NCBI GenBank assembly: GCA_037305845.1
Contig: CP147778.1
Location: forward strand, 1,664,001-1,728,000
DNA from: Candidatus Freyarchaeum deiterrae
Lineage (GTDB): Archaea > Asgardarchaeota > Jordiarchaeia > Jordiarchaeales > Jordiarchaeaceae
Direction: 5' to 3'
DNA: 64,000 nucleotides
Shown here: piece after piece, positions 25,628-58,330 of the stretch
How the letters are laid out: every line of letters begins with the position of its first letter
How positions within the stretch are numbered: the stretch's first letter is position 1
Translations under genes and position numbers: made by a program
The notes under the pieces: generated by a model
The model's database searches: none
What the model was told of the DNA's origin: nothing
Seen by the model: only the letters and a program-made list of their open reading frames with translations

Positions 25628-25995
25628 GGTGGCGAGTCCTGAAGCTCGACATCCCGCACTACCAGCGTATCTGACACCTATTCTCCAATCCGGGATTCTG
25701 GAAGCACCGAGCGTTCAGAGTTAGGTTGCTCCATCAGGGCGCCGACCTAAATTATGCCAGCGTTCTCCCGGGCCTAACCGGTTTCCCTAATGAAGGATAA
25801 ACATACTTTCCCTACGAAAAGCTGTTACCCACCGTCGATCCTCCAGTGCGGATTTTCACTGCCTCGGAGACAGACCGTTTTGGCAGATTGGATATGCCTC
25901 ACATCAGCTTTCGGCCCGCCATATAGAGGATTTGCGGTCGAGAGGAGAACCTCTCTCAGGCAACCCCTATTTGCCCGCCTAGACAAGCCACCACC
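25628..25995 (-). ncRNA. ffs: SRP (7S) RNA with a 32-nt BHB intron at 25733-25764
   Basis: Termini pair (GGTGGTG/CGCCACC); Alu loop-loop complementarity ATAGGGG/CCTCTAT; helix 6 GTAG loop; helix 8 GGTTAGGCCC...GGAGCAACC split by the insert. Confidence 0.93.
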
Positions 25996-34330: not shown

Positions 34331-34422
34331 GGGCGTATGGTCCAGTGGCTATGACACCGCGCTTACAACGCGGTAAATCCTTTTCAGGAGCCGAATCCGC
34401 GGTTCGAATCCGCGTACGCCCA
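34331..34422 (+). tRNA. tRNA-Val(TAC) with a 19-nt variable-loop intron at 34377-34395
   Basis: Acceptor GGGCGTA/TACGCCC; CCGCG-CTTACAA-CGCGG; BHB central helix CGGT/GCCG. Confidence 0.92.
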
Positions 34423-34611: not shown

Positions 34612-35012
34612 GGGGTGATGAGCAGAAGGACGGCTGCCGGTGCCTTTTGGTGCTGAGGAAATCCATCCATCATGTGGGGCTCGAGCATTGTAAAGTGCAG
34701 GCTGAGAAGTCTGGCAATGGAGCAGAAATCCTTTGAATTAAGGACTGTAAACGACACATCCTTCTGAATAATGACTATGATATGGAATAAGAACGTAAAA
34801 CCAATCTTTTGGTGTTCGTTCTACAATAAAACCGTTGAGGATTCAGAAGGAATTGTTGAAACGACCATCCTCGAGGATGCAAGTCCAAATAGGCTGCCGA
34901 TTATCCCCCCACAAGAGGCGGCGGGTAGGACGCTAAGCTGAATGCTGTCAAGAGATCTAATGGTAACATTGACCTCTGAACAGAAGGTGGATTACTCTCT
35001 GCACATCACCCC
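34612..35012 (+). ncRNA. rnpB: RNase P RNA with a 23-nt BHB intron at 34728-34750
   Basis: P1 GGGGTGATG/CATCACCCC; CR-I GAGGAAATCC; CR-V AACAGAAGGTGGAT; P6 GTGGGG/CCCCAC; TGAAACG. Confidence 0.94.
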
Positions 35013-51056: not shown

Positions 51057-51569
51057 TTAAATTTTCAAAATTTTAGCACTCATTTCCTCTAGGTCCAGAA
51101 TTGCTATTGTTCCGTTCCCAATAGTCACAACTCCATTAACTATAGGGTAACTACAGCTTCCGGGATTTATTACCAAAACATTGTTCTGTTTTGCAATGGA
51201 CGCCTCATGGCTATGACCATTGATAACAATGTCGTATTTTCCTGAGAGAATAAGCGCCTCTACAACTTCCGGCCACACTCCATGCGTTAGAGCTATCTTT
51301 TTACCACTGACTTCGAATGCAAAAAATATGGGTTTTAACTCGCCGCCAATTTTCTCCAAAAACATTCTCAAAGCCGCCGGGTCGCCATCGTTATTCCCAG
51401 TAACACATATAATTTTACAATTAAGTTTCTCGAACTCCCTAACGCTAAAGGGACTAACAATATCCCCAGCATGAAGCACAAGATCAACCGATTCCGAGTT
51501 GAACTTTTCAATAGCCGCCCGTATCGCCTCAAGCCTATCATGACTATCAGACATTATCCCAATCAACAA
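51057..51569 (-). CDS. YfcE/MJ0936-family metallophosphoesterase
   Basis: SDSH, HAGD, GNND, HG, GHSH, NPG. Confidence 0.9.
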   Translation of the reverse strand: MLIGIMSDSHDRLEAIRAAIEKFNSESVDLVLHAGDIVSPFSVREFEKLNCKIICVTGNNDGDPAALRMFLEKIGGELKPIFFAFEVSGKKIALTHGVWPEVVEALILSGKYDIVINGHSHEASIAKQNNVLVINPGSCSYPIVNGVVTIGNGTIAILDLEEMSAKILKI

Positions 51570-51596: not shown

Positions 51597-52050
51597 TCAA
51601 TCTTTCACCCAATAGGCTCCACTACCAGAGTACTCCTTTTTATGGGCTGCCTTTCTAAGCAGCTTTCCATATCGGAGCCTCTTTCTTGTATCTCTCCACA
51701 GCCTCAACAAGTGCAGAAAACAATTCCTTCCTATGGGCTCCAGCAACAACTACGTACACCACTTCCTCTCCCACTTTAAATTCTCCCACATTGTGATGGA
51801 TTTGCACATCAATGATTCCTTCTTTATTCTTAATCTCCTCGCAAATATTTGTTAACGTTTCGTTCGCCTTTTCTTCATAAGCTTCTAATTCAAGCTTTTC
51901 CACCGGGATACTCTCTTGCGTTTCTCCACGAACTATCCCAATGAAACAGGCAATAGCACCAGCCTTGTACAAATCTGGATTTTTCTTAATCTCGCTAATT
52001 ATGTCCATTAAATCTATCTCACCTTTATTATGAACTTCACCAGATCTCAT
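51597..52050 (-). CDS. moaE: Molybdopterin synthase catalytic subunit MoaE, spliced (exons 52050-51665 and 51639-51597, 142 aa)
   Basis: GA...F.G.VR, HR...F and K..APIWKKE...W; the last motif is restored only after removing intron 51640-51664. Confidence 0.92.
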
Positions 52051-52606: not shown

Positions 52607-53398
52607 TCAGTCTAGAGCGGTTCCGCATTGCGGACAGAATCTTGCCACACGTGGTAGGCGGATTCCACACATTGGGCAGAAAAATTGTTGCTCATTCTCT
52701 GTTTCTTGAATCTTGTCGAAGTTTATTAAGTACTGAAAGAGATTTTTGAGAAACTGCGGATAAGGCTTTGTGAAATTGATTTCACTGGTTCCTACAAACA
52801 CTCCTTTTCCTAGCTTGGAGCAAACTAATACTGGAGTTATGATTTGGTAGGTTTTTACCAGTTTGACGGATTCGCTCATATTTTGTTTATATTTTGTGGT
52901 GTCCTTTCTGACTCTATTCACTATTACCTCCACGTTGGGCTCTACAGTGTATCCTCCGCTGGCACCGAGTGTTTCCACGTTTCTTAATAGGGGGTGTGTG
53001 CTTTGCCAAGTGATTTTTAGTCTCTCATCTATTAGAAAGCCCTTGTAATCTATTACGCCAAAATTTTTGAGTAGTTTACTGAATCCATTATCCTTAGTGA
53101 TCCCGCGTCCAATAGCTATGATAACCTTCCCCCCCTCCTCGACGAATCGGGTAATATCTTCTATTTCTGCTGCTGCAAAGGCATCCTGTTCACCGAATGG
53201 ATTCCCTATAATTAGAATGACGCAATCCTTCAAAACGCCTAACCTTATAGGTCGCGTTCTTATAGAAAAGAAGTTTATACCATTTGTAAGAAGAGCTATT
53301 GTTTTCTCCATTTTACTAAGTGTAATTCGCTCATTGTGTGATTCGTCGAGAAATATTTTTACCATATTATTAACCTTTTTCCGAAGAATTATATACAT
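52607..53398 (-). CDS. Hypothetical protein: GATase-like/DUF4350-like domain plus C-terminal zinc ribbon
   Basis: DESHNE, FVEEGG.V, FCPMCG...FCPQCG. Confidence 0.6.
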   Translation of the reverse strand: MYIILRKKVNNMVKIFLDESHNERITLSKMEKTIALLTNGINFFSIRTRPIRLGVLKDCVILIIGNPFGEQDAFAAAEIEDITRFVEEGGKVIIAIGRGITKDNGFSKLLKNFGVIDYKGFLIDERLKITWQSTHPLLRNVETLGASGGYTVEPNVEVIVNRVRKDTTKYKQNMSESVKLVKTYQIITPVLVCSKLGKGVFVGTSEINFTKPYPQFLKNLFQYLINFDKIQETENEQQFFCPMCGIRLPRVARFCPQCGTALD

Positions 53399-57787: not shown

Positions 57788-58330
57788 ATGCCCGAAGAAT
57801 CTGAAGAATTTATGTACAAAGTAGTAATAGTAGGAGACGAAAACGTAGGAAAAACCTCAATATTAGTAAGATATACAGAAAAAAAGTTCGTGGAGTCTTA
57901 CATCCCCACTCTTGGGACTGATTTCGCCGTTAAGGTTGTGGAGCTTGAGGGTAATGATAATACACGGAAATCGATTAAGTTGGCATGTTGGGATTTAGGT
58001 GGCCAAGAACAGTATCGGACTTTACGTAAGTTCTATTTAAGCGGTGCTCGTGGATGCATTATTGTTTTTGATGTAACTGATCTATCTTCTTTTGAACATA
58101 TTCTGAACTGGCATAAGGATGTTACTAACATTTGTGGTGAAGTTCCTTGTTTTCTTATCGGGAACAAGACAGATTTAAAAAAGGATAGACGGGTTTCCAA
58201 AGAAGTCAGTTCTGAGTTGGCTTCCAAACTGGGTTTAGAATTTTTCGAGACATCAGCTAAAACAGGAGAAAAAGTTGATGATGTTTTTGAGGTCATGGCG
58301 AGGAGACTGTATGAAACCTATATGACCTAA
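57788..58330 (+). CDS. Small GTPase, Rab-like
   Basis: GDENVGKTS, PTLG.DF, WDLGGQE.Y, GNKTDL, ETSAK. Confidence 0.92.
   Translation: MPEESEEFMYKVVIVGDENVGKTSILVRYTEKKFVESYIPTLGTDFAVKVVELEGNDNTRKSIKLACWDLGGQEQYRTLRKFYLSGARGCIIVFDVTDLSSFEHILNWHKDVTNICGEVPCFLIGNKTDLKKDRRVSKEVSSELASKLGLEFFETSAKTGEKVDDVFEVMARRLYETYMT

What the first reader, a model, noticed from the sequence alone, without database searches (positions are those of the whole stretch)
51640..51664. BHB intron in a protein-coding gene, moaE
Seen (minus strand): CCG-AT-ATGG-AA|A-GCTGC-TTAGAAAG-GCAGC-CCAT-AA|A-AAG-GAG. Perfect ATGG/CCAT helix and two AAA bulges. Unspliced, the ORF ends PIWKAA* at a TAG inside the insert. Removing 25 nt gives PIWKKEYSGSGAYWVKD*, the conserved MoaE PIWKKE...W terminus. 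Known: archaeal mRNA introns are rare, with cbf5 the classic case. Inference: Moco synthesis depends on, and may be regulated by, splicing. Automatic annotation would call this gene truncated.
Basis: partly seen in the sequence, partly recalled or inferred. Interest (0 to 1): 0.9.

Follow-up and report, generated by a model that had tools for sequence, protein, structure and literature searches.

The report
tRNA-type intron splitting Asgard moaE gene
The only molybdopterin-synthase gene (moaE) of this Asgard archaeon is interrupted by a 25-base intron of the kind normally cut out of tRNAs, one of about 18 such introns in its protein genes, whereas in the literature I could search this kind of splicing is documented inside only one archaeal coding sequence (cbf5).

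Summary
Observation confirmed. A 25-nt insert (51640-51664, minus strand) carries an in-frame TAG and folds as a canonical bulge-helix-bulge (BHB). Cutting by the standard rule gives a 142-aa MoaE ending PIWKKEYSGSGAYWVKD. The genome is very probably Freyarchaeum (Asgard). All 15 related loci examined carry an insert at the same site: loop length varies (introns 24-31 nt, all three frames), stem pairs are always kept, and exon 2 is under purifying selection. The sister family and more distant relatives are intronless and match the spliced product. moaE is single-copy, and the genome has MoaC, eight AOR enzymes, two EndA subunits and RtcB. Databases hold 14 truncated 131-133-aa MoaE clusters. 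A genome scan gives about 18 BHB introns in 16 protein genes; eight were checked against intronless orthologues. Nothing supports regulation by splicing. This scan already noted the moaE intron in another genome and similar introns in many Asgard genes; I found no publication of either.

The parts
51665..52050 (-). moaE exon 1 (codons 1-128 plus AA of Lys129)
   Evidence: PF02391; single copy in the genome
51640..51664 (-). 25-nt BHB intron, phase 2, with in-frame TAG at 51657-51655
51667..51670 (-). central helix, exon strand ATGG (Ile wobble base plus Trp codon); invariant in 15/15 loci
51664..51666 (-). 5' bulge AAA; predicted cut between 51665 and 51664
51646..51663 (-). intron hairpin GCTGC/GCAGC with a variable loop; 100% of cells paired, one pair with changes on both sides
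51642..51645 (-). central helix, intron strand CCAT; invariant
51639..51641 (-). 3' bulge AAA (AGA in two relatives); predicted cut between 51640 and 51639
51597..51639 (-). moaE exon 2 (K129-D142 and TGA): KKE motif and terminal beta-hairpin with conserved Trp
51057..51569 (-). YfcE-family metallophosphoesterase gene starting 28 nt after the spliced stop; same neighbour in relatives, probably co-transcribed

Best explanation
This is a pre-mRNA intron removed by the archaeal tRNA-splicing pathway. Shown: the sequence, the predicted fold, the conservation and the presence of the enzyme genes. Inferred: the moaE transcript folds into the BHB; the two-subunit splicing endonuclease EndA cuts after the second base of each bulge; RtcB joins the exons; the spliced message encodes full-length 142-aa MoaE, which with a MoaD/SAMP partner makes molybdopterin for the genome's W/Mo enzymes. 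Unspliced mRNA stops at the intron's TAG and gives a 131-aa product without Glu131 and the last beta-hairpin, probably inactive. The intron most likely arose once in the ancestor of this genus and persists as a constitutively spliced, tolerated insertion. It is one of about 18 in this genome's protein genes, an extension to mRNA of the lineage's published heavy tRNA-intron load.
For: Insert at the identical site in 15/15 related loci from independent samples and assemblers; introns 24-31 nt, all three frames, always with an in-frame stop, and the minimum-energy fold is the exact BHB in all. Central helix and intron stem 100% paired; covariation 0.068 against 0.037 shuffled and at most 0.056 slid. 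The Ile codon is ATA in 15/15 intron-bearing loci but varies in intronless ones. Exon 2 pN/pS 0.30, and 0.013 for KKEY+W; the other two frames carry stops in many loci. The sister family, 78 metagenome loci and 106 more distant proteins are intronless with [WF]K[KR]E. Single moaE, MoaC (43), 8 AFOR genes (44), 4 ThiS/MoaD (84), two EndA paralogues, one with the Tyr/His/Lys motif residues (36, 62, 65), RtcB (95). Human MOCS2B W165R, E168K and frameshifts at 178 and 180 cause disease (PMC9607355); E168 maps to E131 here by the WKKE spacing (inference). Seven more introns in six other genes restore motifs that intronless orthologues show uninterrupted. In cbf5, pcm, tyrS and the HD gene the junction codon exists only after ligation.
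Against: Only one pair shows a change on both sides, and kin are not independent. The outer exon-exon helix is imperfect (84% paired). The gene tree does not resolve a single origin (support 53/25). Human E168K keeps 50% activity in vitro, so total loss of activity in the short form is not proven.
Confidence: 0.92

Rival explanations
1. Translational bypass (ribosome hop, as in T4 gene 60 or mitochondrial byps): the ribosome takes off at AAA, skips the hairpin and lands on the second AAA, with no RNA splicing.
For: In this allele the take-off and landing codons match (AAA/AAA) and a hairpin with a stop lies between them.
Against: Two relatives have AGA at the landing codon while exon 2 stays intact. 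Nine of 14 inserts of the same design have no matching codons at all, and in cbf5, pcm, tyrS and HD the junction codon is created only by ligation. The strict 4-bp/3-nt geometry has no role in hopping.
Confidence: 0.02
2. The insert is not removed: either the 131-aa MoaE is the working enzyme, or moaE is a pseudogene, and the hairpin and downstream sequence are kept for another reason.
For: Databases hold only the 131-133-aa products. The lysines equivalent to K119 and K126 lie in or at the end of exon 1, and Haloferax K247R and K248R are tolerated in vivo (PMC4443979).
Against: Exon 2 keeps K-K-E, W and V invariant in 15/15 loci while synonymous sites change, in one frame only. Its sequence matches the C-terminus of intronless MoaE and of solved structures. 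Exon 1 is under strong selection (pN/pS 0.15), and the gene is single-copy in a genome with 8 AOR genes.
Confidence: 0.04
3. The intron is real and also acts as a regulatory switch that ties Moco/Wco synthesis to EndA/RtcB activity or to competition between ribosomes and EndA.
For: The in-frame stop is kept in 15/15 loci, including frame-preserving 24- and 27-nt introns. In a few relatives an alternative fold competes with the BHB at 37 C (L002, L005, L143). rtcB itself carries an intron.
Against: The BHB is more than 99% formed in this allele, there is no riboswitch, the loop is unconstrained, and intron-bearing genes have unrelated functions with patchy gain and loss between close relatives (nadE, ahcY, alba). 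Stops are common in AU-rich loops.
Confidence: 0.12
4. Assembly or sequencing artefact, or a recent MITE-like insertion.
For: A 3-nt border repeat (AAA) could be read as a target-site duplication.
Against: Present in 15 independent loci with divergent loops. No second copy of the arms in the genome. Border repeats are 0-7 nt across the other inserts. The published genome was checked with long reads (PMC11291895).
Confidence: 0.005

Closest known systems
cbf5 pre-mRNA BHB intron of Crenarchaeota (Watanabe 2002; Yokobori 2009, PMC2738675)
   Same: Short (16-44 nt there, 24-31 nt here), no ORF, BHB at the exon-intron borders, placed in a conserved motif, host has a two-subunit EndA. This genome also has a cbf5 intron at the same phase-1 position in the catalytic Asp codon.
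   Different: Different gene (cofactor biosynthesis), different phylum (Asgard), canonical rather than relaxed motif, and one of about 18 rather than the only mRNA intron of the genome. Splicing was shown by experiment for cbf5 but not here.
Haloferax HVO_1309 BHB intron (PMC7714728; PMC10485636)
   Same: An mRNA substrate of EndA.
   Different: It lies in the 5' UTR and does not interrupt a reading frame; the enzyme is the homodimeric type.
Multi-intron tRNA genes of Freyarchaeia and Atabeyarchaeia (PMC11291895; bioRxiv 10.64898/2026.10.13.758758)
   Same: Same lineage, same motif, same size class, same predicted enzymes.
   Different: Those papers treat tRNA genes only; neither mentions introns in coding sequences.
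Eukaryotic non-spliceosomal mRNA splicing of HAC1/XBP1 (own knowledge)
   Same: Protein endonuclease plus tRNA ligase (RtcB in animals) remove a short frame-breaking intron; XBP1's is 26 nt.
   Different: There the nuclease is Ire1 acting on stem-loops and splicing is stress-regulated; here it is a BHB/EndA motif and no regulation is shown.

Membership tests
Archaeal BHB (EndA-spliced) intron | 4-bp central helix flanked by two 3-nt bulges on opposite strands | tested here: met
   Minimum-energy fold in 15/15 loci; 100% paired
Archaeal BHB (EndA-spliced) intron | Flanking intron helix (h') and exon helix (h) | tested here: met
   Intron helix 5 bp, 100% paired; exon helix imperfect, 84%; at least the HBh' form is fully met
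Archaeal BHB (EndA-spliced) intron | Cutting after the second base of each bulge restores the uninterrupted gene product | tested here: met
   Gives WKKE...W as in intronless orthologues
Archaeal BHB (EndA-spliced) intron | Host encodes EndA and an RNA ligase | tested here: met
   Two PF01974 genes and one RtcB
Archaeal BHB (EndA-spliced) intron | Spliced RNA exists in vivo and EndA cleaves the precursor | not testable with these tools
cbf5 intron family proper | Located in the catalytic Asp codon of cbf5 | tested here: not met
   It lies in moaE; it works like the cbf5 intron but is an independent insertion
Homing-endonuclease (mobile) archaeal intron | Encodes a LAGLIDADG ORF | tested here: not met
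   24-31 nt in all 15 loci; a remnant of a longer ancestor cannot be excluded
Group I/II self-splicing intron | Ribozyme core of several hundred nt | tested here: not met
   25 nt; no Rfam match at the site
Programmed translational bypass | Matching take-off and landing codons | tested here: inconclusive
   Met in this allele; not met in L137/L138 or in most sister inserts
MoaE / molybdopterin synthase large subunit | PF02391 domain ending in a (W/F)KKE strand and a Trp-bearing hairpin | tested here: met
   PF02391 102.6 bits; C-terminus complete only after splicing

The most novel reading that the evidence does not exclude
Freyarchaeia/Jordarchaeia, and to a lesser degree other Asgard lineages, run routine protein-catalysed mRNA splicing on many genes: at least 18 BHB introns in 16 core protein genes here, plus RNase P RNA and SRP RNA, gained and lost between close relatives and placed in the most conserved motifs. 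Intron-split protein genes and general mRNA splicing would then exist among the closest prokaryotic relatives of eukaryotes, independent of the spliceosome.
Probability: 0.8. Interest if true: 0.85.

Novelty: new variant of a known kind. Interest (0 to 1): 0.72.

Why it matters
Reviews up to 2023 list two EndA-spliced archaeal mRNAs, and only one (cbf5) is split within its coding sequence. A conserved intron in a cofactor-biosynthesis gene, as one of about 18 in a single Asgard genome, would turn a curiosity into a system. It bears on whether protein genes were already interrupted and spliced in the archaeal host lineage, and on the ancestry of RtcB-dependent mRNA splicing of the XBP1 type. 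It is directly testable with the published metatranscriptomes of this organism's soil site. It also means that public annotations of these genomes are wrong for essential genes (14 truncated MoaE clusters; split tyrS, gatE, nadE, ahcY), which affects metabolic reconstructions and phylogenomic markers.

Tried and rejected
A search for a spliced 142-aa protein among homologue clusters and listed members found none; this is weak, since RNA assemblies of this rare lineage are scarce. Counting BHB motifs alone did not separate real from chance (11 against 5-9). Adding a reading-frame test gave 24 hits at the canonical cut against 5-14 at shifted cuts. Relaxed scans are dominated by false positives below the top ranks, and they missed real cases (nadE, hdrC, HD, rtcB and others under some filters), so the census is a lower bound with soft edges. 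Candidates +866682, +2924232, +735531 and -2194650 were not accepted; +1883212 (OB-fold) and -2434719 are plausible but unverified. The MoaE tree did not give a supported single origin. The sigma-70 promoter scan is not suited to archaea and was uninformative. No copy of the intron arms elsewhere in the genome points to a donor. One alignment used wrong coordinates (redone in 22) and one fold request was mis-specified. PMC3064391 was not held. Literature searches found no report of Asgard coding-sequence introns, but subscription journals are not covered.

Full report
Observation. On the minus strand the moaE reading frame starts at 52050 and, read straight, stops at a TAG (51657-51655) after PIWKAA, giving 131 aa. 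Removing 51664-51640 gives 142 aa ending PIWKKEYSGSGAYWVKD. The segment folds as a 4-bp helix (ATGG/CCAT) between two AAA bulges, closed by a 5-bp intron stem; z = -5.4, and pair probabilities are 0.99-1.0 in a 200-nt context. A strict short BHB is not by itself rare (11 in the genome against 5-9 in shuffles), so the case rests on position and conservation.

Source. The genome is one contig of 3,576,204 nt. That size matches the complete Freyarchaeum genome of PMC11291895 (3.58 Mbp), and the nearest MoaE proteins are labelled Freyarchaeota or Jordarchaeaceae. That paper reports introns in 92-95% of tRNA genes and does not mention mRNA introns.

Comparative test. All five same-genus genomes, a metagenome locus and eight further distinct loci carry an insert at the same nucleotide. 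Lengths are 24-31 nt and cover all three frames; each has an in-frame stop within five codons; each folds to the exact BHB as its minimum-energy structure. Length variation is confined to the loop. The central helix is invariant, and every change in the intron stem keeps pairing (G-U, U-G, C-G; 100% of cells, one pair changed on both sides). The Ile codon whose wobble base opens the helix is ATA in 15/15 loci, though it varies in intronless relatives. Exon 2 is under purifying selection in the spliced frame only: pN/pS 0.30 overall and 0.013 at KKEY and W, with K, K, E, A, W and V invariant. The five genomes of the sister family, 78 metagenome loci and all 106 more distant proteins are uninterrupted. 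The 14 database clusters at 82% identity or more are all 131-133 aa, that is, annotated as truncated. One gain in the ancestor of the genus is the simplest history, but the protein tree supports it only weakly.

Why exon 2 matters. The KKE motif and the following Trp align with solved MoaE structures from bacteria and humans. An AlphaFold model of the closest intronless homologue (pLDDT 90) places residues 127-133 and 136-140 in a terminal beta-hairpin; the unspliced product breaks off in the first strand. In human MOCS2B, W165R, E168K and frameshifts at 178 and 180 are disease alleles, although E168K keeps half its activity in vitro (PMC9607355); equating E168 with E131 is my inference from the motif spacing. 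moaE is single-copy, and the genome encodes MoaC, four ThiS/MoaD proteins and eight aldehyde:ferredoxin oxidoreductases, so the cofactor is in demand.

Machinery. Two EndA paralogues are present, one with the Tyr/His/Lys motif residues, consistent with the (alpha-beta)2 type, and one RtcB. From established archaeal biochemistry, EndA cuts after the second base of each bulge and RtcB joins the ends. That rule gives exactly the required product. Two relatives with an AGA 3' bulge fit it: the G is the last intron base.

It is not alone. A genome-wide scan for BHB motifs whose canonical excision rescues a broken frame returned 24 hits, against 5-14 for shifted cuts, and the top ranks restore well-known motifs. 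I found these independently: alba, gatE, pcm, nadE, cbf5, ahcY (two), hdrC, an HD hydrolase, porA, a leuC/aconitase-family gene, tyrS and a PHP-like gene. From earlier notes of this scan I then checked mvhD, a radical SAM gene, a third (191-nt) ahcY intron and rtcB. With moaE this makes 18 introns in 16 genes. Pfam halves abut across the junction for pcm (59|61) and nadE (136|138). Intronless orthologues match the predicted spliced products for nadE, ahcY (two sites), alba, cbf5, pcm and tyrS; the remaining ten rest on geometry and on motifs recognised from memory. Distribution is patchy: the nadE intron is in two of five genus members with the orthologue, one ahcY intron is private to this genome, and alba lacks it in two sister-family genomes, while cbf5 and pcm introns with unrelated loop sequences occur in several Asgard families. 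The cbf5 intron sits at the same position as the crenarchaeal one. In the window itself, RNase P RNA, SRP RNA and tRNA-Val carry inserts of the same design.

Rivals. Ribosome hopping fits this allele (AAA/AAA) but fails for the AGA alleles and for sister introns whose junction codon exists only after ligation. Frameshift or read-through cannot cover three frames and an obligatory stop. A pseudogene or a working short form is contradicted by selection on exon 2. An artefact is excluded by independent assemblies. Regulation remains possible but unsupported.

Comparison with the literature. Experimentally shown EndA mRNA substrates are cbf5 and the 5' UTR of Haloferax HVO_1309 (PMC7714728, PMC10485636); other coding-sequence introns were predicted but unconfirmed as of 2009. 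A 2026 preprint on Asgard introns covers tRNAs only. The moaE intron is thus a new member of the cbf5 kind by mechanism; I rate it a new variant because of the scale at which this lineage uses it. Earlier notes of this scan reached the same reading for moaE in another genome and for other genes; these are not independent evidence.

Verdict. A real BHB intron, very probably spliced (0.92), with no RNA proof obtained here and no evidence for a regulatory role. Interest 0.72.

Noticed in passing
window 34728-34750 (+), inside RNase P RNA 34618-35006: 23-nt insert with a canonical BHB in the conserved CAGAA/ACG motif. Three congeners have it with a G-U to G-C change in the central helix; G016 lacks it.
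   Followed up: partly
window 25733-25764 (-), inside SRP RNA 25630-25990: 32-nt insert with a relaxed BHB in the helix-8 loop. Removal gives the sequence of intronless relatives; inserts of 18-31 nt lie at the same site in congeners, the sister family and G036.
   Followed up: partly
window 34377-34395 (+), tRNA-Val 34331-34422: 19-nt BHB intron at a non-canonical position after the anticodon arm.
   Followed up: no
G000:C1 1125569+, 1144985-1145015-, 1152345+, 1452824-, 1472189-, 1483446-, 1589381-, 1619887+, 1863944+, 1873166-, 1876203-1876393-, 1876927-, 1877066-, 2244134+, 2285374+, 2636190-, 987065+: 17 further BHB inserts in protein genes (alba, mvhD, hdrC, rtcB, gatE, cbf5, porA, nadE, radical SAM, tyrS, ahcY x3, pcm, PHP-like, leuC-like, HD hydrolase).
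   Followed up: partly
G000:C1 1883212-1883254 (+) and 2434689-2434719 (-): Two more plausible introns (OB-fold protein, conserved hypothetical protein); not compared with orthologues.
   Followed up: no
L198-L213 (cbf5) and L214-L228 (pcm): cbf5 and pcm introns at fixed sites occur in several Asgard families with unrelated loop sequences and are absent in others, which suggests old introns with losses or repeated gains at the same site.
   Followed up: partly
window 52607-53398 (-): 263-aa ORF upstream of moaE with no NCBIfam match; relatives' products hit IFT52/GIFT weakly plus a C-terminal zinc ribbon.
   Followed up: no
window 57788-58330 (+): Small Ras/Rab-like GTPase ORF, a typical Asgard eukaryotic-signature protein (read from the translation).
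   Followed up: no
window 34618-35006 (+), 3' part of RNase P RNA: A second, 26-nt insertion relative to the Rfam model; it has no usable BHB and is probably an extra helix.
   Followed up: no
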